From positions 4,343 to 68,342 of the forward strand of contig JACROF010000012.1 of assembly GCA_016214555.1 (NCBI GenBank): DNA of 64,000 nucleotides, in the 5' to 3' direction. This document shows, piece after piece, positions 10,538-22,793 of this stretch. The stretch is from Candidatus Levyibacteriota bacterium (lineage in GTDB: Bacteria; Patescibacteriota; Microgenomatia; Levybacterales; UBA12049). Each line of letters begins with the position of its first letter. The first letter of the stretch is position 1. The position numbers and the translations under genes are program-made. Under the pieces are notes generated by a model. That model did not search any database, was not told the DNA's origin, and saw nothing but the letters and a program-made list of their open reading frames with translations.

Positions 10538-11674
10538 ATGCCCACACGTAAAAATAGACAGATAGGTAAGTTCTTAAAACTTCTCCTTCTTTTAATTCTT
10601 ATTGGCGTTGTCCTAAAGATCTTGTTGCTGGTTATTACTTATGCGCCTGTTGCATATCAGTTGGCTTTTGATAAAAAAATATCTCTAAAAAAAGTAGCTG
10701 ATGAGAGGATTAATGTGCTACTCCTTGGTATTGGGGGAGGAAATCATGACGGGCCAAATTTAACAGATACGATTATTTTTACAAGTATTGATCCGAAAAA
10801 TAAAAAAATTACAATGATTACTCTCCCTCGAGATCTTTGGATACAAGATTTGAATTCTAAGATTAACAAAGCATACTCAGATGGTCAGGAAAATGGGAAA
10901 GGACTTGTTCTTGCAAAAGCAGCTGTTGGAAAAGTTTTAGGACAAAAAATTGATTATGGTTTTCGTATCGATTTTAACGGTTTTACTAAAGCAGTTGATA
11001 TGATGGGAGGGCTTGATGTGACGGTTGAAAGAGCATTCGATGACTATGCATATCCCTTGAGTGGGAAAGAGGATGATCTTTGTGGCTATGAAGAGATAGC
11101 TATTGCTAGTTTTTCTGCCCAAATTGCGACAGGTAGTGCAACTGATGCAGATATATTTCCTTGTAGATTTGAACATCTCCATTTTGACAAAGGGCTTTTG
11201 CATATGAACGGAGAGACAGCCTTAAAATATGTTCGATCACGTCACGCTCTCGGACCTGAGGGGTCTGACTTTGCTCGCTCAAAAAGACAAGAGAAAGTCA
11301 TAAGTGCGTTTAAAGAAAAAGTTTTTTCTGCTGGGACACTTCTTAATCCATTAAAATTAGTAAGTCTTTTTGACACCTTTCAGTCAAGTATAGATACTGA
11401 TATTAAGAAAGATGAGTATGATGATTTTGTAAAACTTGCCAACAAAATGAGGGGAGCAATAACAAAAAATTATGTTATCGATACTGGGGATGAGGAAGCA
11501 GATCGACCGGCACTTCTTTATAATCCTCCCCTTACTCCAGATAGATTTGGTGGTGCATGGGTTTTGATTCCAAAAAAAGGAGAGAGTAATTACTCAGAGA
11601 TACAAAATTATGTGAAGTGCTTGGTGGAAAATAGTGGTTGCCTAGCTACTCCTACGCCAATAAGTAAAAAATAA
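10538..11674 (+). CDS. LytR-CpsA-Psr (LCP) family cell-envelope phosphotransferase
   Basis: N-terminal TM; INVLLLGIGGG...LTDTIIFTSIDPKNKKITMITLPRDLW LCP core motif. Confidence 0.7.
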   Translation: MPTRKNRQIGKFLKLLLLLILIGVVLKILLLVITYAPVAYQLAFDKKISLKKVADERINVLLLGIGGGNHDGPNLTDTIIFTSIDPKNKKITMITLPRDLWIQDLNSKINKAYSDGQENGKGLVLAKAAVGKVLGQKIDYGFRIDFNGFTKAVDMMGGLDVTVERAFDDYAYPLSGKEDDLCGYEEIAIASFSAQIATGSATDADIFPCRFEHLHFDKGLLHMNGETALKYVRSRHALGPEGSDFARSKRQEKVISAFKEKVFSAGTLLNPLKLVSLFDTFQSSIDTDIKKDEYDDFVKLANKMRGAITKNYVIDTGDEEADRPALLYNPPLTPDRFGGAWVLIPKKGESNYSEIQNYVKCLVENSGCLATPTPISKK

Positions 11675-12028: not shown

Positions 12029-14248
12029 TTATATCGACATGCGATAGATTATCGTTGCCCCGCTTTGATAAACGACTTTCCCAAGAGTCTTAAAAACAGC
12101 TTCATTAACTGTATATTTTTCATGTTCTAAATTTCCTATGAAAACGTATTGAACTTTATATTTTTTTAACAAAACTAGCGTTTTTTTAATGTCTTTTGAC
12201 TCATACATCTGTTTGATCTCCTCAATTCGAGGAGCTGGGACGTCATATGTTCCTCGCCACAACCATTCATGTACTGTCCAACCAAGAATAGTTGGTAAGC
12301 CAGTGTTTGTTGAGACTCTTGCATAGTCAGTGTAGGAATCTCCTTGAGCCTCAAGAATTACTGGTTGTCCTGAAATATGCTCCTTCATCCATGCAATAGC
12401 TTTTGCATCATCAGGATATCTATCACTAAGATATCTAACGCCATTGAGTCCTTGGTGGTTGTTAAAGTTACCGTAATAAGAGCTCACTGCATAATATGGA
12501 TAAACGAAAACAAGTGAGAGAAGAAGAAGGGTTGTAGTAAAAAATAACATATAGGCAATTTTTGCAGATTTACTTGTCTGTGTTTTAAGAAAATGCATGA
12601 TGCGACTGATGCTATATCCGCTAACGAGCGAAAGCATGATAAAAGCTTGGAAAACAAGTTTAAACATGGTATTTGCTCTGTAATGAGCAGGGTATATATC
12701 TTTTGCATACATAAATTCAGGAATAATGATTAGTATTGTTGAAAGTGCAAAAATCATAAAAATAAAAATATCCGAGGCGTATCGTTTTGTTATTTTTTTA
12801 AGAGTAACCATAAGTGAAATTGCAAAAAAATAGAAAAAACCATATAGAACAAAAAGTTGCCATAATGGTGATTTTTGACAATGGTCTGTCTCAAAAAGAA
12901 ATGGACCAATTTGGCCCTTGGTAACAAGAAAATTAGGAGCACACAAGATACCGATCCCTGACACGAATGGCTTGAAGAATAATGAAAAAGGTAATGAAAA
13001 TATCACAAAACAACCGGCAAGAAATATTATCAAAGGAAATACTTTTGCACTTACAGATATGATCGATGACAGAAGTATTTTTTTATTTGTGAGCGACTCA
13101 TACTGTTGATATGCGAGAAGCATTATCGCCAATAAAAAATAGATTAGACCATCCCATGCATTGGTCATGTACATGCAGGCGAGAAAAAAGCCGAGAGTAA
13201 TAAGAGGTATCGATTGAGAAAAATGTACAGTTATTTTCTTTTTAAATAAAGATATTGAAAGTTTTTTTGTTGGGTTTTGTTTTTTGCTACTAATAAGAAG
13301 TGAAAATATGTAGGCAAGCGTTAGGAGAACAAATGGTATGTCTGTTACGTGTCCATGAAGATCTGAGACTGTCCAAGAGTACATAGGAAATTCATGGATT
13401 GTATTGTGAATAAACCTTGTAGCATTAGGATACCAATAGGAGTTGGGGAATGAGGACGGAGAAAATGCGAGACTCCACATGGGGATGGGATGATCATTTT
13501 CGTATGGTTTAAAAAAGGTATAGAGTGTATGAAGATTTCCAGAAAATGTCACGATGCATGCAGTGAGAATCCCTGCAACAATTATTTTGAATAAATATTT
13601 TTTTTGAATGAATTGGTTATAAAGATTTGCAGCAAGAGAAAAACTACCGACAAAGGTTAATCCTGCAAGTGTTGCTATCATGAGGTTGTAGGTGTATTCA
13701 GACTTAAGAAGTGATAATTTTGTCAGAACAGCCGTAATGAAATGGCCAAAATAATAATAGTTAATAGAAAAAGGAGTAAGCCACATGTCTTTTGGTGGGA
13801 AAAAATCACTACGTAAAATAGAATTAACAAATCCATAATCCATAAATTTTTCCAAGCCATTAATTTCAGGTGAATAAGAACGGATGAATGCCCAGATAAA
13901 AAGGATAACAATAAACAATATTTCTTCAACAACTATCCATCTCCACTGTGTTTTTAGTATTCTAGGTATAGAAATTATTTTTTTAGGATATTTTTGAGAA
14001 AGAAATATTTCTCCAGTAAGAATCAAAGCTGCTATAAGAAAAAGGCTTGCAAAAGAAAAGGGTAATATATGAAGAGTTCCAAAAAGGAGCATGAGATATG
14101 AGACTAAAAGTATTCCGAGACTTTTGCTGAATGCATAACCTTTATCTATAAAATGGTTAAAAAGAACCCCAGTCAAAGGAAGTGTGATAATGCCAACAAG
14201 GAAAATAGTTACCCACCATTGCAGCGTGATAATGAAGTCTATTGTCAT
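12029..14248 (-). CDS. large polytopic membrane protein with C-terminal soluble domain (DUF2298/YYY-like putative glycosyltransferase)
   Basis: 739 aa; about 14 TM helices then about 170-aa soluble tail containing LPTILGWTVHEWLWRG. Confidence 0.4.
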   Translation of the reverse strand: MTIDFIITLQWWVTIFLVGIITLPLTGVLFNHFIDKGYAFSKSLGILLVSYLMLLFGTLHILPFSFASLFLIAALILTGEIFLSQKYPKKIISIPRILKTQWRWIVVEEILFIVILFIWAFIRSYSPEINGLEKFMDYGFVNSILRSDFFPPKDMWLTPFSINYYYFGHFITAVLTKLSLLKSEYTYNLMIATLAGLTFVGSFSLAANLYNQFIQKKYLFKIIVAGILTACIVTFSGNLHTLYTFFKPYENDHPIPMWSLAFSPSSFPNSYWYPNATRFIHNTIHEFPMYSWTVSDLHGHVTDIPFVLLTLAYIFSLLISSKKQNPTKKLSISLFKKKITVHFSQSIPLITLGFFLACMYMTNAWDGLIYFLLAIMLLAYQQYESLTNKKILLSSIISVSAKVFPLIIFLAGCFVIFSLPFSLFFKPFVSGIGILCAPNFLVTKGQIGPFLFETDHCQKSPLWQLFVLYGFFYFFAISLMVTLKKITKRYASDIFIFMIFALSTILIIIPEFMYAKDIYPAHYRANTMFKLVFQAFIMLSLVSGYSISRIMHFLKTQTSKSAKIAYMLFFTTTLLLLSLVFVYPYYAVSSYYGNFNNHQGLNGVRYLSDRYPDDAKAIAWMKEHISGQPVILEAQGDSYTDYARVSTNTGLPTILGWTVHEWLWRGTYDVPAPRIEEIKQMYESKDIKKTLVLLKKYKVQYVFIGNLEHEKYTVNEAVFKTLGKVVYQSGATIIYRMSI

Positions 14249-14790
14249 TGTAAGTCTACTATTTCAGAGAGTTTTGAAATCTGCTTGATGTTATCTGGAA
14301 GCGATTGAGTACTTAATCCTTGGTGGTACCAATAGAATTTGATGTTCTTATTCTTTTTGGCTACATAAGTAAGGAGGTGAAGGTCATCATCTATGTAAAT
14401 ATCCAAATCTAGCATTTTTAGTATCCGATTTTTGAAAAGATGCGGCTGCTCATTATTGAAATTAAAATACATGTTCTCAAAAATTTTATGTAGCCCTAAT
14501 CTCTTTACAAGAGAGAGAGTTTGTTTTTCAAGAAAGCCAAATCTACTAGAGATTAAAAAAAGCTTATTTTTTTTCCTGTTCAGACTTTGGAGAAAAGTAA
14601 TATTTTCTTTAATTGGTGGTCTGAGGTAGTGATTGTGTGAGATTTTGCGAAAGAACTGTTCAGGATGAGATGGAATTCTGTAGAGTAGCTCCCTTTCATC
14701 TTTTTTTCGATAAAGCCTATCAATGAGAGAATCTGGAATCAATGGAGGATAATCAACAAAAATTTTATCTAAGTCAAAACCAATATTCAT
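14245..14790 (-). CDS. HAD-superfamily hydrolase (5'(3')-deoxyribonucleotidase-like)
   Basis: N-terminal FDLDKI DxD motif, later KLFLISSR and DDD motifs. Confidence 0.45.
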   Translation of the reverse strand: MNIGFDLDKIFVDYPPLIPDSLIDRLYRKKDERELLYRIPSHPEQFFRKISHNHYLRPPIKENITFLQSLNRKKNKLFLISSRFGFLEKQTLSLVKRLGLHKIFENMYFNFNNEQPHLFKNRILKMLDLDIYIDDDLHLLTYVAKKNKNIKFYWYHQGLSTQSLPDNIKQISKLSEIVDLQ

Positions 14791-15824
14791 ATTCGAGAAA
14801 TAATGTTGAGGAGTCTAAAATTCCAGCTAGCACGATGAGTGTCTCCTGTTTTGCTATGAATTTTGTTTCTATTCTTCTTGTACCATAGATAGCTCTCCAG
14901 TAAAAGCTCCTTGTTTGATTTTTTTGGGGTCCAGTGTAAAAGTTTTTGAGCTTTTTCTATGGATACATAAGATGGTATAGGCATTGTTTTATAATGCCAT
15001 GCGGCGATAGGTGAAAGATTCAGCACTTCAAGTATTTTGAGAATTACTTGAGAAGGGATAACTGGAAGGCCTGTAATTTTTGATTGAGATTTTTCAGATT
15101 TGATGATAAAACTTAAATCTTTTCTCCACGTTTGATATTCTTTTGCGCCAATATTAAATATTTCATTTGTAACATCGCTTATTAATGCCTTGTAAATAGC
15201 ATCTGCAACATCAGAAACGGCTAGGAGTTGGTATTTGTTGTTTCCTTTACCGAGCACAAAAACTCTTCTACCTGTATATATCGCTTCAAACCACAGAGAA
15301 AATACGCCTAATCTTTCTGGTCCTAAAAAAGTTTTGGGACGAATAATATTTATATCCAGGCCTTTTTGTATAAATTCTTTACAAAGATGCTCAGCAAGCA
15401 ATTTCGATTGTCCATATTGTCCAATTGGCTCCATAGGACTTTCCTCAGTCTCTGGAAGATGCTTTGGGATACCATAGAGGGCTGTTGTAGAAATAAAAAC
15501 TAGCCTTTTAACGCTCGCTTCGCTTGCTGCCTCTAAAACTCTTTTTGTTCCATTGACATTAACACTATAAATTTTCTGCTTTGTTCTTTGAATGGGTAAT
15601 GCAGCTGCTGCATGAATAACATGAGTTACGTTTTTCATTGCGGAGTTGATGTCGTTTTTTTTCCTCACATCTCCTTTAATAAACTCTACATTTCCAATCA
15701 AATCTTTGGCATCAAGTGGGGCTATGTCAAAAAGGGTTACCTTAAAATCCTTTTTAAGCAGCAATCTGGCAACATGAACTCCTAGAAATCCGGAGCCGCC
15801 TGTAATTAAGACATGGGGCCTCAT
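14787..15824 (-). CDS. NAD-dependent epimerase/dehydratase (SDR family)
   Basis: N-terminal ITGGSGFLGVHVARLL Rossmann motif, YxxxK-type catalytic region; 345 aa. Confidence 0.75.
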   Translation of the reverse strand: MRPHVLITGGSGFLGVHVARLLLKKDFKVTLFDIAPLDAKDLIGNVEFIKGDVRKKNDINSAMKNVTHVIHAAAALPIQRTKQKIYSVNVNGTKRVLEAASEASVKRLVFISTTALYGIPKHLPETEESPMEPIGQYGQSKLLAEHLCKEFIQKGLDINIIRPKTFLGPERLGVFSLWFEAIYTGRRVFVLGKGNNKYQLLAVSDVADAIYKALISDVTNEIFNIGAKEYQTWRKDLSFIIKSEKSQSKITGLPVIPSQVILKILEVLNLSPIAAWHYKTMPIPSYVSIEKAQKLLHWTPKKSNKELLLESYLWYKKNRNKIHSKTGDTHRASWNFRLLNIISRI

Positions 15825-15873
15825 AGAAGGTTATTGTAGCGTGTGGTTTTTCTTGATACAAGAAGTAAACCAT

Positions 15874-17568
15874 CTATTTATTCATATTCTTAAAGATAGT
15901 GACAACTGGGTGATCATAGACACTAAATGATTCATCAAGATTTTGGTCATTTAGCTCAAGAGTAGTGAATGGGATTGTAGCAAAGGATGAGAATTCTGCA
16001 ACTTTTTTGTATCCAAGCTTTCCTTTAAATAGGTCATCATAGTATTTAGCAGTTTCTTTGTAACATCTGCCTTTGGGTAGATTTTGGCAGTCAATAAGCT
16101 TGCTAAGTGGCTTATAAAGTCTGCTTGATGAAAGGATTAGGTAGTCACTTTTTTGTAAGGATGATGCAATAATGCTCCATTTCAATGGTGAGTCTGGCTC
16201 ATAAAGTGCAAGAGTCTCGTATTGATAATCGCTTGCGTTAAATAAAGGAAGGGAGTCATCCCAATGCTCAACTGCTATAGTGCTTGAGGAAGGGATGTTT
16301 TTTGTAATCCATATACTAGCCTCATATCGCGTGAAAGGTTTTGTATAGATTGACATAAAGGAGATTGGCCAGGTAAGTACGCCAATAAGAAAAATACATG
16401 CAAGAACCATTTTAGGAGACTTCAGTTTTATAAAAATCTGATAACTTACAAGGCCACCGAAGAGGCAAAGAATTGGATATAGAGGTAGTATATACCTGAT
16501 AAATCCTACAGCAAATTTTCCAACAATTAAAAAATAACTCAAAAAAAAGATCAGAAGTATTAGCTCTTGTTTTTTAAAAAGTCCAGCCTTTTTTGTCTTG
16601 ATATCAATTGCTCTTTTGATAATTCCAAAAAAGCATGTTAAGGCAAGAATTGGACCCATCCCTACAAAAAATACTTGAGTGAGTTCGTAAATATAGGGAA
16701 TCTTTCCTACGTATTGAAGCGTGTAAGGGAAAGTAAAAGCGTTTTTTGTCATTTGCGCTTGGGCTAGAGTTTGCTGCCAAAATTCAGGAAAAGCAATAAG
16801 CACATATGGTTGAAAAACAAAAAATAACAATACTGTCATAGCTCCTGTTGCAAGAAAATAAAGAATAAGTTTTTTCAAAAATGAAGGAACGTGGGCGATC
16901 CAGCTCTTAGGGTGAGGGCTTTTCTTAATGATTAGTAAAAAATCAATGGAGAGGGCGAAGAGAAAAGATACAATCAGTACTGTCGCACTAATTTTTGTTG
17001 AGAGAGACGCTGCAAGACTTGCTCCAATAAGGAGGCTTAATTTTAGAGAAGGATTCTCATAAAAACGTATGAGAAGATATAGCGTGAGAAGTATAAAAAA
17101 AGAAAGTAATGTATCAACTGCATAAAAACGAGAGAGTTGTATTGGCAATACACTTATTCCATAAAAAAAGGCAGCCAGAGCTCCAACTTTATTATTCCAA
17201 AGACGCCTACCAATGAAAAAGACGAGAGACAATATTCCAAGGTCAGCAAAAAGAGAAATAGCTCTTCCAATAATTGTCAAATAGTCATAAGAGAAATATT
17301 CTGGTTTAAAAATGGCAATAAGTTTTCCCACAAAGTAAAGCATGTAGAGAGGTAGTGATCCATATGCAAAAAAATGGGGATTCCAGGTGCTGTTCGGGTT
17401 AAAAAAATCAGCTACTGTTTTTGGAAAAGAAAGTTGATTTGTAAATAGGATTATAGCTCTCTCATCCGGATGCATATGAAATCCATGATCCCAATTTATG
17501 CCATATACTCTCATAAGCCCTGAAGCTATAAAAATTGTGATAAATAAAATCTTGCTATTATTTTTCAT
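15874..17568 (-). CDS. GT-C-fold membrane glycosyltransferase-like protein, paralog A (PMT/ArnT-like)
   Basis: 564 aa, polytopic; first-loop HPDER motif and NPHFFAYGSLPLYM shared with the adjacent paralog. Confidence 0.5.
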   Translation of the reverse strand: MKNNSKILFITIFIASGLMRVYGINWDHGFHMHPDERAIILFTNQLSFPKTVADFFNPNSTWNPHFFAYGSLPLYMLYFVGKLIAIFKPEYFSYDYLTIIGRAISLFADLGILSLVFFIGRRLWNNKVGALAAFFYGISVLPIQLSRFYAVDTLLSFFILLTLYLLIRFYENPSLKLSLLIGASLAASLSTKISATVLIVSFLFALSIDFLLIIKKSPHPKSWIAHVPSFLKKLILYFLATGAMTVLLFFVFQPYVLIAFPEFWQQTLAQAQMTKNAFTFPYTLQYVGKIPYIYELTQVFFVGMGPILALTCFFGIIKRAIDIKTKKAGLFKKQELILLIFFLSYFLIVGKFAVGFIRYILPLYPILCLFGGLVSYQIFIKLKSPKMVLACIFLIGVLTWPISFMSIYTKPFTRYEASIWITKNIPSSSTIAVEHWDDSLPLFNASDYQYETLALYEPDSPLKWSIIASSLQKSDYLILSSSRLYKPLSKLIDCQNLPKGRCYKETAKYYDDLFKGKLGYKKVAEFSSFATIPFTTLELNDQNLDESFSVYDHPVVTIFKNMNK

Positions 17569-19171
17569 AGTTAATTTTGAAAATCATAACTGTTGGTCTA
17601 TCAAAAACATTAACTGTCTGCTCAGGGCCAAAAATTGGATCAAAGGAGTAGGCAATCTTGCACCAAAAGTCGCAAGGCGTCTCATAGATTTTTTTATATG
17701 TAGTTGAGTTGTCTATTTGTTTATATATCTTGTTTCCTTTTGGAAAATGGACAGGGTCATGTAAGCGGGTTTGATATAGTCTTTGACTAGGTAGTACAAG
17801 ATAATCAGATTGTGCAATTTTGTCTTTATATATTGTTAGTGTTGCATCAGGAGAATTATTTTCTAGATCATAAAAGTTAAAAAGCTCAACTGATGGATAA
17901 TATTGATTAAAAGGAATGATGCCAAGGTCATAAATCTCAGAAAGAATTTTTTTATTTGTTGGTATATTTATTTTCGCAAATGTAACCGCCTCAATTCTTG
18001 TGTCTTTTTCAAGGTATACAGTTTTTACAAATGAAAAAGCAAAAACAAGATTAAGCACTCCCGCTATGCCCCCTAAAAATATAAGTGTTTTTTTATTTTT
18101 CTTACTACTCTCATAAATAATTATTGCCGTTAATGAAAGCATGAGATAGATAAAAGGAAGGGTAGGAACAAAGTATCTTGTCCATTGTGCGAAGAGAAAT
18201 GTTTGTGACAGAAATGATGTAAAAAAGAAAATAAGAAGATAGACTAGTTCAATGTTAAATTTTTTAGTAAGAGTGATTATGAGAACTGCTATAGATAATG
18301 GAATTAAAACAGTATGAATTGGGTTAACTAGATGAGGATAGATTTTTAAAAAAGGGAAGACAATTGGAGTTGCGGTTAAAAATTCTCCAGTATAAAAAAC
18401 TACGATCTTTCCAAGAGCTACATTTGATTCATAGGTAATACTATTTATGAAAGAGCGGGTATCAAGAAATGTGAATGGATTAGTAATGCTATAAAAAATA
18501 GCAGCAGACAATAGTGCACCTCCAGCTATAAGAGATTTCTTAATAAGAGTATAATTTTTTTGAAAAAAGATAAGACTAATAAAAGGTAAATAGATTACGC
18601 TTGAAATTTTTACACCGATGAGAACTGAAAGGCTAAAGGCAAGAAGTAAGGCATGAGCCAGTGAGGGGCTTTTTTGATAGAGGAGAACGCTTAAGAATAA
18701 GAGAGCCAAAAAAAATGTTAGCCACATTTCAAATGTCCCAAAATGTGCATACTGAATCATACCTACTCCTGTTGAGGTAATGTATGCGGAAATGATTCCT
18801 GCACTTTTATTTTTTAATAGAGCTCCTATTTTATAGACCAATAGAATTGTTCCACATGAAAATAGAAATGAAAAAAATCTTAAAATTACGACCGCATCCT
18901 CAAATCCTACTTTGTTTGGAGAAATTACCTCTTGTGAGAAAAGGTTTTTTACAAGTCCTAAAAAGAACGTTACATAAATAGGTAGTGATCCATATGCAAA
19001 AAAATGTGGGTTCAATTGATCTGGAAATCTCATTCCAGAAATTGCGTTTGCAATATTTCGCTCATCAGGGTGAAAGAAAAAAGGCGACCCCCAGAAGAGA
19101 TTTACAGCTCTTAAGATCGTCCCTAAAACAACAATAGCTATAAGTGCCTTGTAAGAAAAAGTTTTTTGCAT
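17558..19171 (-). CDS. GT-C-fold membrane glycosyltransferase-like protein, paralog B
   Basis: 537 aa; HPDERNIANAI...NPHFFAYGSLPIYV; same topology as 15874..17568. Confidence 0.5.
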   Translation of the reverse strand: MQKTFSYKALIAIVVLGTILRAVNLFWGSPFFFHPDERNIANAISGMRFPDQLNPHFFAYGSLPIYVTFFLGLVKNLFSQEVISPNKVGFEDAVVILRFFSFLFSCGTILLVYKIGALLKNKSAGIISAYITSTGVGMIQYAHFGTFEMWLTFFLALLFLSVLLYQKSPSLAHALLLAFSLSVLIGVKISSVIYLPFISLIFFQKNYTLIKKSLIAGGALLSAAIFYSITNPFTFLDTRSFINSITYESNVALGKIVVFYTGEFLTATPIVFPFLKIYPHLVNPIHTVLIPLSIAVLIITLTKKFNIELVYLLIFFFTSFLSQTFLFAQWTRYFVPTLPFIYLMLSLTAIIIYESSKKNKKTLIFLGGIAGVLNLVFAFSFVKTVYLEKDTRIEAVTFAKINIPTNKKILSEIYDLGIIPFNQYYPSVELFNFYDLENNSPDATLTIYKDKIAQSDYLVLPSQRLYQTRLHDPVHFPKGNKIYKQIDNSTTYKKIYETPCDFWCKIAYSFDPIFGPEQTVNVFDRPTVMIFKINYEK

Positions 19172-19174
19172 AAT

Positions 19175-20452
19175 CTAGGAGGTGGCTATCTTTGCGATTT
19201 TTTCTCCTAACTCAACTGCATAATTTGTTCCCCTATCCCACGGATATACTTGTTCGATATTTGCCAAAAATGTATGAGGTAGCGGAGTCTTAAAAGGAGG
19301 GATGAGTTTGGAATAATTTGTGGGAATGATCGGTTGTGCGAAAGGAGCTCTAAATACATCATAGGAGATGATATTTTTTTGATAATCAGGATTTATTTTC
19401 TTAAGTAAAGGATCATATCTTTTTAAGAGATTTTTTTTGTCCATTATAAAAAGTTCGCTATGAGGATCTGGGTAATTTCCAACATATACGATGTGTTCAT
19501 TGTTGAAATGTTTTTTATTCATAAGATTTGTGTGCTCTACAACCACCATTACTGGAGCATCTTTTTCGCATATGCTTAACCAGTATGTGTTGTCCTCAAG
19601 CATGTGTTTTTTCAATCTCAGGATCATATTTGTCGCACCCAACCCTCTCAGTCTTACTAATGTTTCTTTATAGCTTTCAGGAAGGTCTGGTGCAATTTTG
19701 AGAAAAAGAAAAGAGGGAAGAGTTACGATTATTCGATCGAATTTTTCAGTCTTTTCTTTGTTGTTTTTTACATAGGTTATTTGAGCGGTTTGACTATCTG
19801 AGAGATTAATTATTTCAGAATTATAGTTGATGACTCCCCCACCATTGCGGATTTTTGACGCAAGAGCATTGGCAAATTTTAGAAATCCTCCTTCTGGATA
19901 AGCAAGAGAAGGAGTTCTCTTGTAGATTCTTGTCCAGAACCAAACAAGTGAAATTTCTGTTGCATATTTTCCCATTTTATTTTTAAGTTGTGGTTCCCAG
20001 AGCATAGAGAAAGCTTTCTCACCCATTGTTTTTTTAAGAAATGAAATGGCATTTATTTTTTCAAGTGGACGCCAAAAAGGATTTAGCTTTAGAAAGGCAA
20101 GGATAAAGCTCATGCGAAGCTTGTCAAGGAGGGGGAGTTTGGGAAAAGAGAGAATTGCCAAGGGCGAATCTAGTTGATAGCTTTTTCCATCCAAGAAAAC
20201 TGAGGTTTTTGGTCTTTTAATTATTACTGGAAAATCAATTTCGTGGGCTAAATTTAGTATATGATTATCGTTTGTGAACCAGTGGTGATAGTGTTTTTCT
20301 AGAGTCCAGTTCCATTCCTTTTCTTTATAGCCAAGAGCAAGCCCTCCAGGATTTGGGTCTTTTTCAAAAATAGTTACCTTATGGCCATTTTTTTGTAGAT
20401 AAAAAGCTGCAGATAGGCCCGTAAAGCCGGCGCCGATTATACCTATTTTCAT
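19175..20452 (-). CDS. FAD/NAD(P)-binding oxidoreductase (amine-oxidase / protoporphyrinogen-oxidase-like fold)
   Basis: N-terminal MKIGIIGAGFTGLSAAFYL dinucleotide-binding motif; 425 aa. Confidence 0.6.
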   Translation of the reverse strand: MKIGIIGAGFTGLSAAFYLQKNGHKVTIFEKDPNPGGLALGYKEKEWNWTLEKHYHHWFTNDNHILNLAHEIDFPVIIKRPKTSVFLDGKSYQLDSPLAILSFPKLPLLDKLRMSFILAFLKLNPFWRPLEKINAISFLKKTMGEKAFSMLWEPQLKNKMGKYATEISLVWFWTRIYKRTPSLAYPEGGFLKFANALASKIRNGGGVINYNSEIINLSDSQTAQITYVKNNKEKTEKFDRIIVTLPSFLFLKIAPDLPESYKETLVRLRGLGATNMILRLKKHMLEDNTYWLSICEKDAPVMVVVEHTNLMNKKHFNNEHIVYVGNYPDPHSELFIMDKKNLLKRYDPLLKKINPDYQKNIISYDVFRAPFAQPIIPTNYSKLIPPFKTPLPHTFLANIEQVYPWDRGTNYAVELGEKIAKIATS

Positions 20453-21843
20453 AATGATTTTTTACCAAGGTGGAGCAGGAAGAAACCAGTGCTTAATATG
20501 ATTACAGAGATTATACCTGAAAAAAGGAGCATTGGACTTCCAGGATTTTCCTCAGGCGGAGGAACACTTTGTGTTAGAAGTGCCGTGGGGACTGGCGATG
20601 TGGGCGTTGGTGAGTGTGTAGGACTCGGAGAAGATGATGGCGCAAGGGTTGGGCTAGGTGTTGGTGTCTGCACTTTAGGAGTAGGAGTAATTGTAGGAGA
20701 GGGGATGACAGAAGGTTCAACAAACTGACTGCCTTCAGCAAAAACAGTAAAGGACCGGGTAATTGTTTGAAGAATGCCGTCTTTATTTTTTGTTTTAATA
20801 GTGATTGTATGTTCACCAGGTGAAAGCTTGGTGTCTGGTCGATAGGACCATGTGCCTCCTGTCCCAGATTTGATTGTCGTTGTGATTTGCTCATCAGAGT
20901 GTATTTCAATCTGAATTTCACTGTTGGGAAGTGCTGTGCCTTCGAATGTTGGTTGGTTATCATGAAGGGGCTCCTCTTTTTCAGGAGATAGGATAGTTGG
21001 GTTACCAGATGTTGATACCTCAGTTGCGCTAAATGAAGGGAATGAGCTTGAAGTATCAGCTGATGAAGATGCAATAGGCGCAGTATGCTGTTCAGCTTCG
21101 GATGTAAAGTCGTAGGAATTTGTTATGGTAACAGGCGGAACGGGGTTAATTTGACTTGGCAAAACGGAGACAGTAGCTTTTCCTTGTGGACTAACTGCGA
21201 GAAGTTTGATGATGCTTTGTGTTCCAAATTTACTATATGAGAGAAAATCTTTCTTTCTGAGAGCATTCAGCGGCATGATAAAGGTCCCATCTTTTTTTGT
21301 TAGTACAGAGAACGTTTGCGTGTCATCACTGACTAAAAATACTATAGTGTTGTTATCTGAGGACCCATCAGGATAGTTAACAGTTCCAACGATCGGCTGT
21401 TGTGAGTTCGGACTTTCAGATAAATGCATTAATGTTTTAATGGCAAATGGTTTTCCTTTATCTAAGAATGTTTTATCTGAGGAAGTAATTGAAAAATAAT
21501 ACTGCGTATTAGGCTCTAAATTTTTAACAGTAATATGATGAATAGAATAAGGCTGTGGAATTCCTGACTGTTGATCTCTGTCATCTAATGCAACTTTTCC
21601 ACCAGACGAAGTTTTTCCATACCCTAGACTTCCTAAGACACTATCTTTGGTTATGTAGGAAACAGTGAAAGACGAGTCTGTTAGGTTAGTTATTCTGATT
21701 TCTTCAGGGGAATATGTTGGAGATGCCTTCGTCAGAAAGAAAACTCCATGGTTAACAGCGTAGTTGAATATGAAAATACCAAATCCAATAAGAATGAGGC
21801 CTAATAGTGTTGGGATTCTTTTATACAACAATGATCCTTGCAT
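20449..21843 (-). CDS. membrane-anchored surface protein with FN3-like and Ig-like domains and PT-rich linker
   Basis: N-terminal TM/signal anchor; purple-acid-phosphatase-N/FN3-like segment (RITNLTDSSFTVSY...NLEPNTQYYFSI); Ig-like segment; PT-rich linker; C-terminal TM helix. Confidence 0.55.
   Translation of the reverse strand: MQGSLLYKRIPTLLGLILIGFGIFIFNYAVNHGVFFLTKASPTYSPEEIRITNLTDSSFTVSYITKDSVLGSLGYGKTSSGGKVALDDRDQQSGIPQPYSIHHITVKNLEPNTQYYFSITSSDKTFLDKGKPFAIKTLMHLSESPNSQQPIVGTVNYPDGSSDNNTIVFLVSDDTQTFSVLTKKDGTFIMPLNALRKKDFLSYSKFGTQSIIKLLAVSPQGKATVSVLPSQINPVPPVTITNSYDFTSEAEQHTAPIASSSADTSSSFPSFSATEVSTSGNPTILSPEKEEPLHDNQPTFEGTALPNSEIQIEIHSDEQITTTIKSGTGGTWSYRPDTKLSPGEHTITIKTKNKDGILQTITRSFTVFAEGSQFVEPSVIPSPTITPTPKVQTPTPSPTLAPSSSPSPTHSPTPTSPVPTALLTQSVPPPEENPGSPMLLFSGIISVIILSTGFFLLHLGKKSL
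20580..20705 (-). repeat. low-complexity Pro/Thr/Ser-rich linker coding region within the surface protein gene
   Basis: encodes SPTITPTPKVQTPTPSPTLAPSSSPSPTHSPTPTSPVPT; generates spurious ORFs in other frames. Confidence 0.6.
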
Positions 21844-21844
21844 A

Positions 21845-22165
21845 TTATATTGCTCCTTCTACTGCAGAGTCAGAAGCAGTTGGCTCTAAGTCAGGTACTA
21901 GTTCGCTTGTAGGAGAAGCATCTGGTGTGTCTTGTTCAGATTGATTCCCAAGGCTGAAGTCAGCCAAAATAGCATCTCTTTTTTTAAGGTCATCAATAAC
22001 ACTTGCATCAAAGGTGGATGAGATAGGTGTGATAAGAAGGCTTTGAGGTTTGGTAAGGGTTGAATTGACTGCTTTACTATAAATTCCCAAGATGATCCAT
22101 ACAAGTATAACAAATGCAGAAGGGATAAGAATATAAAGTAAATTTTTTTGTTGTTGTGGTTTCAT
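21845..22165 (-). CDS. small single-pass membrane protein (possible pilus assembly accessory, PilP-like position)
   Basis: 106 aa; N-terminal TM helix then acidic/Ser-rich tail; sits directly downstream of pilO-like gene. Confidence 0.3.
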   Translation of the reverse strand: MKPQQQKNLLYILIPSAFVILVWIILGIYSKAVNSTLTKPQSLLITPISSTFDASVIDDLKKRDAILADFSLGNQSEQDTPDASPTSELVPDLEPTASDSAVEGAI

Positions 22166-22166
22166 A

Positions 22167-22793
22167 TTATGGTTGATAGTATGCGCTTGCCTGAATGATT
22201 AGCTTTAACTCTCCAGACTTTTGATCTGCAGGAACAGTGAGTGTTAAAGAGGTGATGGTAATAATTCTCTCTATGTTGACAATATCTTCGTAGAATGACT
22301 CCATATCTGATAATTTTCCTTGGATGGTAAGTGCGATAGGTATTTCCTGAAGTGTACTAGACATTTTTTTATGAGTAGCTAGTTCGACAGATTGTGTTTG
22401 TAGCTGTGTAAGAGTGACGTTATTTGTTGATGCAATTGTTCGGAGTTGACCAGCAAGTTTTGTTAGTTCTGCAGATGTAGGAACAGCTTTGTATAAAATA
22501 GGAAGCTGCGAAGACAAGGGTTGGTATGCCTGGTCAAGAAGTGTCATATTGGCAATTTTTGTTTGGAGTTGTTTATCAAGGTATTTGTTGTCTTCAAGCG
22601 TTTTTTTAAGTTCAGAGATGGTTGAAAGCGTTGGACTTATAGCAAAAATACCAAAAAACATACAAGCAGTAATAGTCAAAATAAGCGTTGCATACGTCTG
22701 AACTTTTTCCTCGTGAATATTTGGAAGTGAACGAATATATTTTAGGTAACGCTCTTTTGAAAGCTTACTGAGAAGTTCTGGAGTAATTTTCAT
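22167..22793 (-). CDS. type IV pilus assembly protein PilO-like
   Basis: 208 aa; cytoplasmic N-terminus, single TM, coiled-coil, C-terminal beta-rich domain; 4-nt overlap with the pilN-like gene. Confidence 0.45.
   Translation of the reverse strand: MKITPELLSKLSKERYLKYIRSLPNIHEEKVQTYATLILTITACMFFGIFAISPTLSTISELKKTLEDNKYLDKQLQTKIANMTLLDQAYQPLSSQLPILYKAVPTSAELTKLAGQLRTIASTNNVTLTQLQTQSVELATHKKMSSTLQEIPIALTIQGKLSDMESFYEDIVNIERIITITSLTLTVPADQKSGELKLIIQASAYYQP

What the first reader, a model, noticed from the sequence alone, without database searches (positions are those of the whole stretch)
12029..20452. An 8.4-kb co-directional surface-glycan locus made of polytopic GT-C-like proteins plus sugar-modifying enzymes
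Six consecutive minus-strand genes with 4-50 nt overlaps/spacers:
- a 739-aa membrane protein with a soluble C-domain
- a HAD hydrolase
- an NAD-dependent epimerase/dehydratase
- two paralogous GT-C-like membrane proteins, each about 550 aa
- an FAD oxidoreductase

They are immediately upstream of a PT-rich anchored surface protein and pilN/pilO-like genes. The arrangement looks like a dedicated protein O-glycosylation or cell-surface polysaccharide pathway. Such pathways are largely uncharacterised in CPR-like bacteria.
Basis: inference. Interest (0 to 1): 0.6.

Follow-up and report, generated by a model that had tools for sequence, protein, structure and literature searches.

The report
Levybacteria GT-C surface-glycan operon
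A tightly packed operon in a candidate-phyla-radiation (Levybacteria) genome encodes three membrane glycosyltransferases and three cytoplasmic sugar-donor enzymes, most likely to decorate a wall-anchored surface protein or the cell wall; the parts are recognisable, but the pathway, its sugar and its target have never been studied.

Summary
Six overlapping or nearly abutting minus-strand genes lie at 12029-20452. They are the 3' part of a 10-gene array (12029-23362) that starts with pilN/pilO and a PT-rich anchored Ig-like protein.

- The 739-aa protein is DUF2298/TIGR03662. Its AlphaFold model matches only GT-C enzymes (STT3, DPY19, AglB, AftA).
- The two ~550-aa proteins are paralogs with an invariant HPDER loop-1 motif and weak PMT_2 hits.
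- The 181-aa protein has a HAD fold and all four HAD motifs.
- The SDR is closest to NDP-sugar 4-epimerases.
- The flavoenzyme belongs to NF005560.

The array recurs in 48 Levybacteria species. A variable slot in it holds GT4, GT2, extra GT-C and methyltransferase genes.

New lead: NF005560 flavoenzymes sit beside enzymes that make polyprenyl-phosphate sugars in Proteobacteria and Actinomycetota. Four Levybacteria loci carry a decaprenyl-phosphate-phosphoribosyltransferase-like UbiA gene inside the cluster. This hints at a lipid-linked pentose donor.

The acceptor is unresolved: either the PT-rich protein or a wall polymer. This is a new variant of a known kind, of moderate interest, and everything beyond family assignment is inference.

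The parts
12029..14248 (-). 739-aa DUF2298 / Chlor_Arch_YYY polytopic membrane protein with a C-terminal ~150-aa soluble domain. It has a GT-C fold (STT3/DPY19/AglB/AftA-like) and is the putative extracytoplasmic glycosyltransferase.
   Evidence: - Profiles: PF10060 3.1e-91. TIGR03662 509.6 bits against cut-off 300.25, full length.
- Model: AF2 pLDDT 82.7, pTM 0.89.
- Fold: the Foldseek top 9 PDB hits are all GT-C enzymes, E 1.8e-7 to 1.7e-4. The C-terminal domain resembles the AglB globular domain.
- Invariant motifs in the Levybacteria alignment, also seen in a Lachnospiraceae homologue of 29% identity: FxD35xGY, GLE133KxMD137, NYYYFGH, DLHGH, KDIYP..RANTMFK, GWTVHEWLW.
14245..14790 (-). 181-aa cytoplasmic HAD-superfamily phosphatase. 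The family has no Pfam or NCBIfam model.
   Evidence: - No Pfam, NCBIfam or PDB-sequence hit.
- 519 homologues, none carrying a Pfam domain.
- Invariant D6/D8, S81/S82, K120 and D134-D136, which are HAD motifs I-IV.
- AF2 pLDDT 89.9. The leading Foldseek hits (E<=1e-3) are almost all HAD-superfamily proteins, mostly phosphatases.
- Present next to DUF2298 in 48/48 loci, but it was the query used to fetch those loci.
14787..15824 (-). 345-aa extended SDR of the NAD-dependent epimerase/dehydratase family, most similar to NDP-sugar 4-epimerases.
   Evidence: - PF01370 4.4e-44.
- TGGSGFLG and Y137xxxK motifs.
- The nearest solved relative is 8rdg (9.4e-26), a GDP-sugar 4-epimerase, followed by NSDHL and GalE.
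- Present in 35/48 loci. A GT4 gene takes its place in 11 of all fetched loci.
15874..17568 (-). 564-aa GT-C-like paralog A. It has TM1, a ~70-aa external loop carrying the invariant HPDER motif, a multi-TM core and a ~155-aa C-terminal soluble domain.
   Evidence: - PMT_2 1.8e-9, 38.4 bits against GA 26.1.
- Homologues carry PF02366 plus PF13231 and are named GT39 or ArnT family by NCBI.
- Invariant H33 P34 D35 E36 R37.
- Hydropathy supports the architecture.
- Present in 48/48 loci.
17558..19171 (-). 537-aa GT-C-like paralog B.
   Evidence: - 27% identity and E 1e-36 to paralog A over the full length, with the same HPDER motif.
- PMT_2 at only 21.2 bits, below GA 26.1.
- Present in 42/48 loci.
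19175..20452 (-). 425-aa cytoplasmic FAD oxidoreductase of family NF005560 (PRK07233), with an amine-oxidase/phytoene-desaturase-type fold.
   Evidence: - PF01593 3.5e-22. NF005560 381.6 bits against cut-off 252.
- Present in 45/48 loci.
- Homologues lie in UbiA/DprE1-like/DprE2-like/extended-SDR/GtrA operons in 4 Proteobacteria, and next to an ArnC/PgfS-like GT2 in Embleya.
20449..21843 (-). 464-aa surface protein and candidate glycan acceptor. It has an N-terminal TM, fn3/Big_13 Ig-like domains, a PT-rich stalk (~residues 385-425) and a C-terminal motif + TM + basic tail.
   Evidence: - Big_13 1.2e-10.
- 24 of 30 residues are S/T/P, and it is the only such ORF in the 64-kb window.
- All 55 orthologues carry a stalk with 24-35 of 40 residues P/S/T just before an LPXTG-like or xPG[SN]S motif + TM.
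- Its stop overlaps the FAD gene start by 4 nt.
21845..22165 (-). 106-aa single-pass membrane protein with an acidic S/T/P-rich tail. It is a conserved member of the array.
   Evidence: No family hit. One TM. Detected in 30/48 loci by tblastn.
22167..22793 (-). PilO-like bitopic protein.
   Evidence: PF04350 7.5e-14. Present in 40/48 loci.
22790..23362 (-). PilN-like bitopic protein and first gene of the array. No pilM is adjacent.
   Evidence: Weak PF05137 hit (0.008). N-terminal INLL motif. Orthologues are called PilN (weak) in L001. The upstream neighbour is divergent EF-G.
10538..11674 (+). LCP (LytR-CpsA-Psr) glycopolymer-to-peptidoglycan ligase, convergent with DUF2298. It is a possible partner only if the product is a wall polymer.
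   Evidence: TIGR00350 5.1e-28. Adjacent in 41/48 loci, but so are TIM and PcrA.
3926..6879 (-). Two further polytopic proteins about 5 kb away: a 454-aa PMT_2-like protein, and a 530-aa membrane protein with C-terminal TPR repeats (an architecture like TfpW/TMTC). They are possible additional GT-Cs of the same surface-glycan machinery.
   Evidence: PMT_2 8.9e-6 at 26.4 bits. TPR_8 1.8e-17. Conserved after FemAB in some loci.

Best explanation
This is an extracytoplasmic surface-glycosylation operon run by GT-C enzymes.

**Shown**
- Three polytopic GT-C-type proteins, with conserved acidic motifs in their first external loops and C-terminal soluble domains, are co-encoded with three TM-less (hence presumably cytoplasmic) enzymes. 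The GT-Cs are paralogs A and B and the DUF2298 protein. The soluble enzymes are a HAD phosphatase, an extended SDR of the NDP-sugar 4-epimerase type, and an NF005560 flavoenzyme.
- All six lie directly behind a wall-anchored protein with a PT-rich stalk.

**Inferred mechanism**
1. The cytoplasmic enzymes tailor a sugar that is carried on polyprenyl phosphate.
2. The loading enzyme is not in this window. It would be either a GT2 polyprenyl-P-sugar synthase or a UbiA-type phosphoribosyltransferase; both occur inside the cluster in some relatives.
3. The lipid-linked sugar is flipped to the outer face of the membrane.
4. There the three GT-Cs transfer sugars one at a time.

**Acceptor and donor**
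- Favoured acceptor: the Ser/Thr-rich stalk of the co-operonic Big_13 protein, and possibly other S/T-rich exported proteins. This would work like the Streptococcus mutans Pgf system or actinobacterial PMT.
- Favoured donor type, held with lower confidence: a polyprenyl-P-pentofuranose made in the manner of decaprenyl-P-arabinose. In that scheme the HAD enzyme removes the 5-phosphate and the flavoenzyme carries out the oxidation step.

**My probabilities**
- GT-C glycan pathway using lipid-linked donors: about 0.85.
- Protein as acceptor: about 0.45.
- Pentofuranose-type donor: about 0.3.
For: **Fold and family**
- Searches give the profile hits.
- The DUF2298 model matches STT3, DPY19, AglB and AftA and no transporter.
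- HPDER is invariant in 29 homologues of paralog A and is shared by paralog B.
- The DUF2298 motifs are conserved between Levybacteria and Lachnospiraceae.
- HAD fold and motifs.
- The SDR is nearest to a GDP-sugar 4-epimerase.
- The soluble enzymes have no TM segment.

**Locus logic**
- The gene order is conserved in 48 species.
- A variable slot holds GT4 (11 loci), extra polytopic proteins (15 loci), GT87, PMT_2, SAM methyltransferase, and GT2 genes whose best matches are polyprenyl-P-sugar synthases: AglJ, PpgS, Dol-P-hexose transferase and PgfS.
- Independent, non-CPR support: a full-length DUF2298 homologue on a Pseudobutyrivibrio plasmid sits among wecB, SDR epimerases, two GT2s, a DegT aminotransferase and an O-antigen-ligase-family gene.

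**Acceptor**
- The PT-rich stalk is universal in 55 orthologues and unique within the window.
- Precedent: the Pgf system has two GT-Cs and an epimerase clustered with LPXTG adhesins that carry S/T-rich regions (PMC12041528, PMC5856776).

**Donor**
- NF005560 members lie in HAD-UbiA / DprE1-like / DprE2-like / extended-SDR / GtrA operons in 4 of 4 annotated proteobacterial records.
- An NF005560 member also lies next to a DegT gene and an ArnC/PgfS-like GT2 in Embleya.
- A UbiA gene is embedded in the cluster in 4 Levybacteria loci. Its best matches are the decaprenyl-phosphate phosphoribosyltransferase models (180.7 bits against cut-off 207).
Against: - There is no biochemical or expression data.
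- No polyprenyl-P-sugar synthase (GT2 or UbiA) and no flippase was found in the window or within 10 kb beyond either end.
- The paralog A and DUF2298 profiles have no sequence hit to any solved GT-C, even at E<=10. Paralog B is below the Pfam threshold.
- The synteny extends to TIM, PcrA and FemAB. Conserved order in this one clade is therefore weak evidence of functional coupling.
- PT-rich stalks in Gram-positive wall proteins need not be glycosylated.
- The window SDR is not a specific orthologue of the proteobacterial operon SDR (22-25% identity, E about 1e-6).
- The window HAD shows no specific similarity to the HAD domain fused to UbiA.
- The flavoenzyme is not a VAO-type DprE1.
- The UbiA gene is present in only 4 of about 80 loci.
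Confidence: 0.45

Rival explanations
1. The product is a peptidoglycan-linked cell-wall glycopolymer, similar to arabinogalactan, arabinan or a secondary wall polysaccharide. The polymer is started on polyprenyl-PP-HexNAc. The three or more GT-Cs extend it outside the cell from polyprenyl-P-sugar donors. The adjacent LCP enzyme ligates it to peptidoglycan. On this reading the neighbouring Big_13 protein is just a neighbour.
For: - An LCP gene is convergent and adjacent in 41/48 loci.
- Variant loci L025 and L035 read: PMT_2 GT-C - 117 aa - WecA/MraY-type Glycos_transf_4 - UbiA - SDR - HAD - DUF2298, and in L035 an LCP gene follows directly (L025 carries LCP further downstream). This gene set is the mycobacterial arabinogalactan logic.
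- Having three to five different GT-Cs, plus GT4, GT2 and methyltransferase accessories, suits a multi-sugar polymer better than a simple O-monosaccharide.
- AftA is among the structural matches of DUF2298.
- A FemAB gene is nearby.
Against: - The LCP gene is on the opposite strand and is followed by housekeeping TIM and PcrA genes that are equally conserved. The adjacency may therefore be clade collinearity.
- There is no initiating phosphoglycosyltransferase, Wzx/Wzy or ABC exporter in this window's locus.
- The best structural neighbours of DUF2298 are protein-modifying GT-Cs.
- A polymer could equally be built on a protein, as TfpW does on pilin.
Confidence: 0.3
2. The locus is a type IV pilin glycosylation module. 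The GT-Cs, in an operon with pilN/pilO, glycosylate pilins during assembly. This would resemble Pseudomonas aeruginosa TfpW, which polymerises D-arabinofuranose from a lipid-linked donor onto pilin.
For: - The array starts with pilN/pilO.
- TfpW is a GT-C fed by UbiA, DprE1 and DprE2 homologues (bioRxiv 10.1101/2020.04.19.049825).
- A TPR-tailed polytopic protein with a TfpW-like architecture lies about 5 kb away.
- The NF005560 and UbiA links to lipid-pentose pathways apply here too.
Against: - No pilin, pilM, pilB or pilC gene lies in or next to the array.
- tfpW-type genes normally sit directly after pilA.
- No sequence similarity to TfpW was tested or found.
- The pilN/pilO linkage may again be collinearity.
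Confidence: 0.08
3. The six genes are not one pathway. They are neighbours because gene order is frozen across Levybacteria, and they serve several unrelated envelope or lipid functions. For example, the flavoenzyme and SDR might act on isoprenoid lipids, and one or more of the GT-C-like proteins might be a non-catalytic flippase, as proposed for archaeal Agl23.
For: - The synteny also covers TIM, PcrA, FemAB and EF-G.
- The promoter and terminator scans are uninformative.
- The sub-threshold best NCBIfam hits of the SDR and the flavoenzyme are the hopanoid-associated HpnA and HpnE.
- Paralog A weakly hits TIGR03663/Agl23, a GT-C-like protein reported to flip lipid-linked sugars (PMC11182771).
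Against: - The 4-nt and 11-nt overlaps imply translational coupling.
- The slot between GT-C A and the HAD gene varies in content, yet always holds glycan genes.
- DUF2298 and NF005560 each sit in glycan or lipid-sugar clusters in unrelated phyla.
- The invariant acidic loop motifs argue for catalysis.
Confidence: 0.1

Closest known systems
Streptococcus mutans Pgf protein O-glycosylation system (PgfS GT-A, PgfE 4-epimerase, PgfM1/PgfM2 GT-C), clustered with the LPXTG adhesins Cnm, CnaB and CbpA
   Same: - Two paralogous GT-C membrane enzymes and an SDR 4-epimerase are encoded next to a wall-anchored surface protein with a Ser/Thr-rich region.
- Transfer is extracytoplasmic, from a polyprenyl-P-sugar.
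- GT2 genes found in the cluster in relatives, and the GT2 next to the Embleya NF005560 gene, score best or near-best against PgfS.
   Different: - The Pgf GT-Cs are YfhO-family. Here they are PMT_2-like and DUF2298.
- This window's locus has no GT2.
- The HAD phosphatase and the NF005560 flavoenzyme have no Pgf counterpart.
- The locus has three GT-Cs, not two, and is linked to pilN/pilO.
Decaprenyl-phosphoryl-arabinose pathway with GT-C arabinosyltransferases: Mycobacterium Rv3806c/Rv3807c/DprE1/DprE2 with AftA/Emb; Pseudomonas aeruginosa PsPA7_6245-6249 with TfpW; rhizobial noeCHOP
   Same: - The overall logic matches: phosphatase, flavoenzyme, SDR and several GT-Cs in one cluster.
- A DPPR-synthase-like UbiA gene lies inside the cluster in 4 relatives.
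- NF005560 enzymes travel with UbiA, DprE1-like, DprE2-like and GtrA genes in Proteobacteria.
- AftA is a structural match of DUF2298.
   Different: - The flavoenzyme has an amine-oxidase fold, not VAO-type DprE1.
- The SDR is extended and GalE-like, not classical DprE2.
- The phosphatase is a HAD enzyme, not PAP2.
- No UbiA or GtrA gene is in this window.
- There is no homology to Emb, Aft or TfpW at sequence level.
STT3/AglB/PglB oligosaccharyltransferases and the DPY19 C-mannosyltransferase (GT-C enzymes that act on proteins)
   Same: - They are the best structural matches of the DUF2298 model (E 1.8e-7 to 7e-6).
- The match includes an AglB-like C-terminal globular domain.
- DUF2298 has invariant acidic residues in its early external loops.
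   Different: - No WWDYG motif; the protein has GWTVHEWLW instead.
- No STT3 Pfam hit and no sequence hit to any solved OST.
- TM-scores are only 0.35-0.42.
GT39 protein O-mannosyltransferases (PMT) and GT83 ArnT
   Same: - Paralog A passes the PMT_2 model, and its relatives also hit PF02366 and are named GT39 or ArnT family.
- It has an Asp-Glu motif in loop 1, as in PMTs.
- Its size (~550 aa) and C-terminal soluble domain resemble ArnT.
   Different: - No PMT_4TMC or MIR domain.
- The profile finds no solved PMT or ArnT.
- Paralog B is below threshold.
TIGR03662 (Chlor_Arch_YYY) and TIGR03663 (Agl23) families of Archaea and Chloroflexi
   Same: The 739-aa protein is a full-length TIGR03662 member with the YYYxG motif.
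   Different: - Paralog A reaches only 32.6 bits against TIGR03663, whose cut-off is 126.
- Neither family has a demonstrated transferase activity.
- Agl23 is reported to be a flippase.

Membership tests
DUF2298 (PF10060) / TIGR03662 Chlor_Arch_YYY | Full-length profile match above the curated cut-off, plus the YYYxG motif | tested here: met
   PF10060 307 bits against 27.8. TIGR03662 509.6 bits against 300.25, covering residues 5-737. N163YYYFG is present.
GT-C superfamily (DUF2298 protein) | Polytopic N-terminal module with the GT-C fold | tested here: met
   The AF2 model (pTM 0.89) gives Foldseek top 9 hits to STT3, DPY19, AglB and AftA, each at probability 1.0. Transporter hits have probability <=0.08.
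GT-C superfamily (all three proteins) | Conserved acidic motif in the first extracytoplasmic loop | tested here: met
   HPD35E36R is invariant after TM1 in the paralog A family and is present in B. D35 and E133/D137 are invariant in DUF2298. The external location is inferred from hydropathy and the positive-inside N-terminus, not measured.
GT-C superfamily | Glycosyl transfer from a polyprenyl-phosphate-linked donor | not testable with these tools
   This needs biochemistry.
GT39 / PMT_2 (paralogs A and B) | Pfam PMT_2 or PMT match above the gathering score | tested here: inconclusive
   Paralog A scores 38.4 bits against 26.1 (met). Paralog B scores 21.2 bits (not met). B is tied to A by BLASTP E 1e-36.
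GT39 PMT proper | PMT_4TMC C-terminal module and/or MIR domain, and similarity to solved PMTs | tested here: not met
   No such Pfam hits. The A1 profile finds no PDB chain even at E<=10.
STT3/AglB/PglB oligosaccharyltransferase | WWDYG motif in the C-terminal domain and an STT3 profile match | tested here: not met
   No WWD in the sequence. No STT3 Pfam hit. No PDB sequence hit. Only the fold is similar.
HAD superfamily phosphatase (181-aa protein) | Rossmannoid HAD fold plus motifs I-IV (DxD, S/T, K, DD) | tested here: met
   The leading Foldseek hits (E<=1e-3) are almost all HAD-superfamily proteins. D6/D8, S81/S82, K120 and D134-136 are invariant.
Extended SDR, NDP-sugar epimerase/dehydratase | TGxxGxxG NAD site, catalytic YxxxK and a PF01370 match | tested here: met
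   PF01370 151 bits. TGGSGFLG and Y137GQSK are present. The nearest structure is the GDP-sugar 4-epimerase 8rdg. Substrate specificity was not testable.
NF005560 (PRK07233) FAD oxidoreductase | Score above the NCBIfam cut-off | tested here: met
   381.6 bits against 252, full length. The Rhizobium operon member scores 510.9 bits. The two are 27% identical, E 5e-43.
DprE1 (decaprenylphosphoryl-ribose oxidase) | VAO-type FAD_binding_4 domain / NF053785 | tested here: not met
   The window flavoenzyme hits Amino_oxidase and NAD_binding_8, not FAD_binding_4.
DprE2 | Classical ~250-aa SDR, NF053786 | tested here: not met
   The window SDR is a 345-aa extended SDR. DprE2 is not among its 25 best NCBIfam hits (45 matched in all). 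Its similarity to the proteobacterial operon SDRs is only E about 1e-6.
UDP-galactopyranose mutase | GLF domain (PF03275) | tested here: not met
   Only the N-terminal Rossmann segment (residues 2-69) matches UGM chains, at E 0.007. There is no GLF hit.
TIGR03663 / Agl23 | Score above the cut-off (126.25 bits) | tested here: not met
   Paralog A scores 32.6 bits. Paralog B gives no hit.
Pgf-type O-glycosylation system | GT-A polyprenyl-P-sugar synthase plus YfhO-type GT-Cs plus a 4-epimerase next to an S/T-rich wall-anchored protein | tested here: inconclusive
   The epimerase and the adjacent PT-rich anchored protein are present. No GT2 is in this window. The GT-Cs are not YfhO family. A GT2 is present in the cluster in some relatives.
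Sortase (LPXTG) substrate (Big_13 protein) | LPXTG-type motif followed by a TM segment and a basic tail | tested here: inconclusive
   The TM and KK tail are present. The window copy reads NPGSP. 24-33 of 55 orthologues have an LPXTG-like motif and the rest have xPG[SN]S.

The most novel reading that the evidence does not exclude
Levybacteria may build an arabinan-like (pentofuranose) surface glycan by a route that does not use DprE1/DprE2.

1. A UbiA-type transferase puts phosphoribose on polyprenyl phosphate.
2. The Pfam-less HAD enzyme removes the 5-phosphate.
3. The NF005560 flavoenzyme, with an SDR, re-configures the lipid-linked pentose.
4. DUF2298 and the two HPDER paralogs act as the transferases that place the pentose on a PT-rich wall protein, on pilins or on the wall. 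DUF2298 is a family of about 6,600 sequence clusters with no known function and an STT3/DPY19/AftA-like fold.

A corollary is that the six-gene proteobacterial plasmid module makes a second, still unknown lipid-linked pentose beyond decaprenyl-P-arabinose. That module is HAD-UbiA, DprE1-like, DprE2-like, extended SDR, NF005560 and GtrA.
Probability: 0.25. Interest if true: 0.8.

Novelty: new variant of a known kind. Interest (0 to 1): 0.5.

Why it matters
**Biology of these bacteria.** CPR/Patescibacteria live attached to other cells, so their surface (pili, wall proteins and wall glycans) is the interface that decides host contact. I found no paper on protein glycosylation or GT-C enzymes in this group.

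**What this locus offers.** It gives a concrete, conserved gene set to test.

**Three orphan families gain working hypotheses.**
- DUF2298 has 6,654 representative clusters at E<=1e-3 and no functional literature. Here it gets a GT-C catalytic assignment, with named candidate residues.
- NF005560 flavoenzymes are linked to polyprenyl-phosphate-sugar pathways in three phyla.
- A HAD family without any profile model gets a candidate role as a lipid-sugar or sugar-phosphate phosphatase.

**If the pentofuranose reading is right.** Arabinan-type chemistry, best known from the mycobacterial wall and as the DprE1 drug target, would have a non-orthologous counterpart in CPR bacteria and on proteobacterial plasmids.

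Tried and rejected
**Searches that gave nothing**
- Sequence searches of paralog A, DUF2298 and the HAD protein against all PDB chains gave no usable hit, either as single sequences or as profiles at E<=10.
- hhalign of the paralog A family against the DUF2298 family gave only 25% probability, so I do not claim that they are detectably homologous.
- The promoter and terminator scan returned counts at chance level.
- Literature searches for DUF2298 (2 incidental papers), Patescibacteria + GT-C, Patescibacteria + protein glycosylation, and PRK07233 found nothing relevant.
- tblastn of paralog A against plasmids gave no match.
- The Halarchaeum DUF2298 hit is partial and its context is uninformative.

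**Assignments rejected**
- UDP-galactopyranose mutase for the flavoenzyme: only the Rossmann segment matches.
- DprE1/DprE2 homology for the flavoenzyme and SDR.
- Orthology between the window SDR and the proteobacterial operon SDR.
- Specific relatedness of the window HAD to the HAD domain fused to UbiA.
- Agl23 membership.
- STT3 membership.

**Looked for and not found**
- A GT2 or UbiA donor synthase in the window or within 10 kb beyond either end.

Full report
**Observation**

They are 12029-14248 (739 aa), 14245-14790 (181 aa), 14787-15824 (345 aa), 15874-17568 (564 aa), 17558-19171 (537 aa) and 19175-20452 (425 aa). The junctions are overlaps of 4, 4 and 11 nt and spacers of 49 and 3 nt.

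The same tight packing continues 5' through four more genes. These are a 464-aa Big_13/fn3 protein (20449-21843, overlapping the flavoenzyme gene by 4 nt), a 106-aa membrane protein, PilO and PilN (to 23362). A divergent EF-G gene follows. The natural unit is therefore a 10-gene, 11.3-kb array, and the finding covers its 3' two-thirds.

P0121 and P0241 are 100% identical database entries. They show that the window is from a Candidatus Levybacteria MAG, where these genes are deposited as 'hypothetical protein'.

**What each gene is**

*The 739-aa protein.*
- It is a full-length DUF2298/TIGR03662 'Chlor_Arch_YYY' member: PF10060 at 3e-91, and TIGR03662 at 510 bits against a cut-off of 300.
- It has no sequence relative among solved structures.
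- An AlphaFold model built on 40 homologues is confident (pLDDT 82.7, pTM 0.89).
- Its nine significant Foldseek hits in the PDB are all GT-C glycosyltransferases: yeast STT3, the DPY19 C-mannosyltransferase, archaeal AglB and mycobacterial AftA. The C-terminal soluble domain resembles the AglB globular domain. Transporters appear only at non-significant scores.
- The family has many invariant charged or aromatic motifs: FxD35xGY, GLE133KxMD137, NYYYFGH, DLHGH, KDIYP..RANTMFK and GWTVHEWLW. These are retained in a Lachnospiraceae homologue of only 29% identity.
- Two of these motifs lie in low-confidence loops of the model. Substrate-gated loops would be expected to behave this way.
- It lacks the WWDYG motif and is not an STT3 family member.

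*The two ~550-aa proteins.*
- They are paralogs, 27% identical with E 1e-36 over their full length.
- They share an architecture: TM1, a ~70-residue loop, a multi-TM core and a ~150-residue C-terminal soluble domain.
- Paralog A passes Pfam PMT_2 (38 bits against 26). Paralog B does not (21 bits).
- Relatives of A also hit PF02366, and NCBI names them GT39 or ArnT family.
- H-P-D-E-R directly after TM1 is invariant in 29 homologues and is present in both paralogs. This is the position and chemistry of the GT-C loop-1 catalytic motif.
- The family profile finds no solved PMT or ArnT, so these proteins are remote from characterised enzymes.

*The 181-aa protein.*
- It has no Pfam, NCBIfam or PDB-sequence hit.
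- It folds confidently (pLDDT 89.9) into a HAD phosphatase.
- It keeps all four HAD motifs invariant.

*The SDR.* It is an extended NAD-dependent epimerase/dehydratase (PF01370, 4e-44). Its nearest solved relative is a GDP-sugar 4-epimerase, followed by NSDHL and GalE.

*The flavoenzyme.* It has an amine-oxidase/phytoene-desaturase-type fold and is a bona fide member of NCBIfam NF005560, an unnamed family (382 bits against 252).

The three soluble enzymes have no TM segment or signal peptide.

**Conservation**

I scanned one genome per GTDB species with the HAD family and found 119 relatives. Going by record titles (where informative) and locus content, these are Levybacteria/Microgenomates-type MAGs; many are mis-titled 'uncultured Gammaproteobacteria' or carry other phylum labels. 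I then mapped all window proteins onto the 80 fetched loci.

In the 48 non-redundant loci that span Big_13 to DUF2298, the counts are:

| Gene | Loci (of 48) |
|---|---|
| GT-C A | 48 |
| HAD | 48 |
| DUF2298 | 48 |
| Flavoenzyme | 45 |
| GT-C B | 42 |
| SDR | 35 |
| PilO | 40 |
| LCP | 41 |
| TIM | 42 |
| PcrA | 38 |
| FemAB | 38 |

Two points follow.
- Housekeeping neighbours are as conserved as the glycan genes. Synteny inside this one clade is therefore weak evidence of functional linkage.
- The stretch between Big_13 and DUF2298 is not frozen. It ranges from 4.6 to 9.6 kb, and the inserted or substituted genes are all glycan genes:
  - GT4 in 11 loci, usually replacing the SDR.
  - Extra ~500-aa polytopic proteins in 15 loci.
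  - A GT87 gene and a PMT_2 gene.
  - SAM methyltransferases.
  - Small GT2 enzymes whose best NCBIfam matches, all sub-threshold, are polyprenyl-phosphate sugar synthases: AglJ, PpgS, Dol-P-hexose transferase and PgfS.

Conserved flanks around a variable glycan-gene core is the signature of surface-glycan loci.

**Independent evidence from outside the clade**

*DUF2298.* A tblastn search of DUF2298 against PLSDB found a full-length homologue on a Pseudobutyrivibrio xylanivorans plasmid. It is embedded among wecB, two SDR epimerase/dehydratases, two GT2s, a DegT aminotransferase, a 'glucosyltransferase domain' membrane protein and an O-antigen-ligase-family gene.

*The flavoenzyme.* The same search gave eight full-length hits.
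- All four annotated proteobacterial records show the same six-gene module. The records are Burkholderia stagnalis, Rhizobium tumorigenes, a Rhodobacteraceae strain and Agrobacterium salinitolerans.
- The module is: UbiA-family prenyltransferase, FAD-binding oxidoreductase, ~245-aa SDR, extended SDR, NF005560 flavoenzyme and GtrA.
- Profile scans of the Rhizobium copy show the following:
  - The first gene is a HAD-UbiA fusion (NF006088). Its UbiA half matches the decaprenyl-phosphate phosphoribosyltransferase models.
  - The next two genes are DprE1-like (369 bits against a cut-off of 500) and DprE2-like (168 bits against 250).
  - The flavoenzyme is NF005560 at 511 bits.
- In Embleya (Actinomycetota), the NF005560 gene overlaps by 4 nt a GT2 that matches PgfS and ArnC, and a DegT aminotransferase gene precedes that GT2.

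NF005560 enzymes thus accompany enzymes that load sugars onto polyprenyl phosphate in three phyla.

*UbiA inside the Levybacteria cluster.* Searching the proteobacterial UbiA back against the Levybacteria loci found a 301-312-aa UbiA gene inside the cluster in four species. Its best matches are the three decaprenyl-phosphate phosphoribosyltransferase models (180.7 bits against a cut-off of 207, full length):
- L080: FAD - UbiA - GT-C B - GT-C A - ... - HAD - DUF2298 - LCP.
- L051: PilN - PilO - Big_13 - UbiA - GT-C B - GT-C A - SDR - HAD.
- L025 and L035: PMT_2 GT-C - 117 aa - WecA/MraY-type Glycos_transf_4 - UbiA - SDR - HAD - DUF2298; in L035 an LCP gene follows directly.

*Caveats.*
- The window SDR is not a specific orthologue of the proteobacterial operon SDR.
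- The window HAD is not specifically related to the fused HAD domain.
- The window and 10 kb beyond each end contain no UbiA or GT2 gene.

**The candidate acceptor**

- The Big_13 protein has an N-terminal TM, Ig-like domains, a stalk in which 24 of 30 residues are P/S/T, and a C-terminal motif + TM + KK tail.
- It is the only ORF in the 64-kb window with such a stretch.
- All 55 orthologues keep a stalk with 24-35 of 40 residues P/S/T.
- The pre-TM motif is LPXTG-like in roughly half of them and xPG[SN]S in the rest. The window copy reads NPGSP.
- The closest experimentally studied analogue is the Streptococcus mutans Pgf system. There a GT-A, a 4-epimerase and two GT-C enzymes, encoded beside LPXTG adhesins, O-glycosylate Ser/Thr-rich regions outside the cell (PMC12041528).
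- Against this, the convergent LCP gene and the WecA-UbiA variant loci recall mycobacterial arabinogalactan assembly and support a wall-polymer product.
- TfpW shows that a GT-C can polymerise a lipid-derived pentose directly on a pilin. The two readings are therefore not mutually exclusive.

**Mechanism I commit to**

1. Cytoplasmic enzymes prepare a polyprenyl-phosphate-linked sugar.
2. The sugar is flipped to the outer face of the membrane.
3. Three GT-Cs transfer it there.

The first step is inferred and the donor type is uncertain. A pentofuranose made in the manner of decaprenyl-P-arabinose is the most interesting candidate; an epimerised hexose or HexNAc is the plain alternative. In the last two steps, fold and motifs are shown but activity is inferred. 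The acceptor is the PT-rich stalk of the co-operonic surface protein (about 0.45) or a peptidoglycan-linked polymer (about 0.3).

**Novelty and verdict**

- The gene families are recognisable, and automatic pipelines already name some of them.
- DUF2298 has no functional literature, although it has 6,654 representative clusters.
- I found nothing published on GT-C enzymes or protein glycosylation in Patescibacteria.
- The locus type has clear precedents in Pgf, PMT and the arabinan/TfpW pathways, but it differs from each in enzyme families and composition.
- I class it as a new variant of a known kind, of moderate interest.
- The added value of this analysis is fourfold: the GT-C fold assignment of DUF2298, the confirmed HAD enzyme, the 10-gene extent of the array, and the cross-phylum link of NF005560 (and of the cluster itself) to lipid-linked pentose pathways.

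Noticed in passing
L087, L088, L089, L090 (plasmids of Burkholderia stagnalis, Rhizobium tumorigenes, Rhodobacteraceae SC52, Agrobacterium salinitolerans): A conserved six-gene module: HAD-UbiA fusion (NF006088), DprE1-like, DprE2-like, extended SDR, NF005560 flavoenzyme and GtrA. It contains a full decaprenyl-P-arabinose-type gene set plus a second redox pair, which suggests a further, uncharacterised modification of a lipid-linked pentose. The DprE1-like and DprE2-like scores are below the NCBIfam equivalog cut-offs.
   Followed up: partly
window 22167-23362 (-): pilN (with the N-terminal INLL motif that normally binds PilM) and pilO head the array. There is no pilM, pilB, pilC or pilin gene nearby. 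They are followed by a 106-aa membrane protein and the Ig-like anchored protein, in a PilN-PilO-small-Big_13 order conserved in 30-40 of 48 loci. This could be a monoderm envelope-spanning sub-complex rather than part of the glycan pathway.
   Followed up: partly
window 20449-21843 (-), and orthologues in L001-L083: The C-terminal sorting-signal-like motif of the Big_13 protein comes in two flavours across species: LPXTG-like (for example LPKTGSS, IPASGSS, PPTGS) and xPG[SN]S (for example SPGSS; NPGSP in the window). This suggests either two anchoring enzymes or a relaxed sortase specificity.
   Followed up: partly
window 3926-7898 (-): After PcrA comes a second small envelope cluster: FemAB-family transferase (6885-7898), a 530-aa polytopic protein with C-terminal TPR repeats (5287-6879, an architecture like TfpW/TMTC) and a 454-aa PMT_2-like protein (3926-5290). 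Their starts and stops overlap by 4 nt.
   Followed up: partly
window 25714-27489 (+): A PIG-L family (GlcNAc-type) deacetylase followed by a GH18 glycoside hydrolase lies directly after EF-G. These are further sugar-handling genes close to the locus.
   Followed up: no
window 29540-30556 (-): A 338-aa protein that combines an N-terminal DnaJ (J) domain with a Ser/Thr protein kinase domain. This is an unusual fusion.
   Followed up: no
window 52852-54595 (-) versus L092 2833-4608: In the window, the DUF2207 gene is split into two ORFs in different frames (N-terminal domain at 53828-54595, C-terminal domain at 52852-53709). A Logan assembly carrying otherwise identical genes has one 591-aa gene. 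This points to a frameshift, either a sequencing or assembly error or a pseudogene.
   Followed up: partly
window 15874-17568 (-) versus database entry P0001: The deposited gene call for GT-C paralog A is 546 aa, starting 18 codons downstream, which would delete TM1. The 564-aa start is supported by the conserved N-terminus in 29 homologues (alignment A1).
   Followed up: yes
L004-L083 record titles: Many contigs that carry this Levybacteria-type locus are titled 'uncultured Gammaproteobacteria bacterium', Limnocylindrales, Methylomirabilota, Acidiferrales or even Pacearchaeota. These look like taxonomic mislabels in the deposited MAG records.
   Followed up: no
L002 19071-21701, L003 17143-21695: In some Levybacteria, DUF2298 is followed not by LCP/TIM but by a T4SS-like set (T4SS_pilin, PrgI-like, TraC-like and TraG/VirB4-like ATPase). 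The right-hand boundary of the locus is therefore a recombination or insertion point.
   Followed up: no
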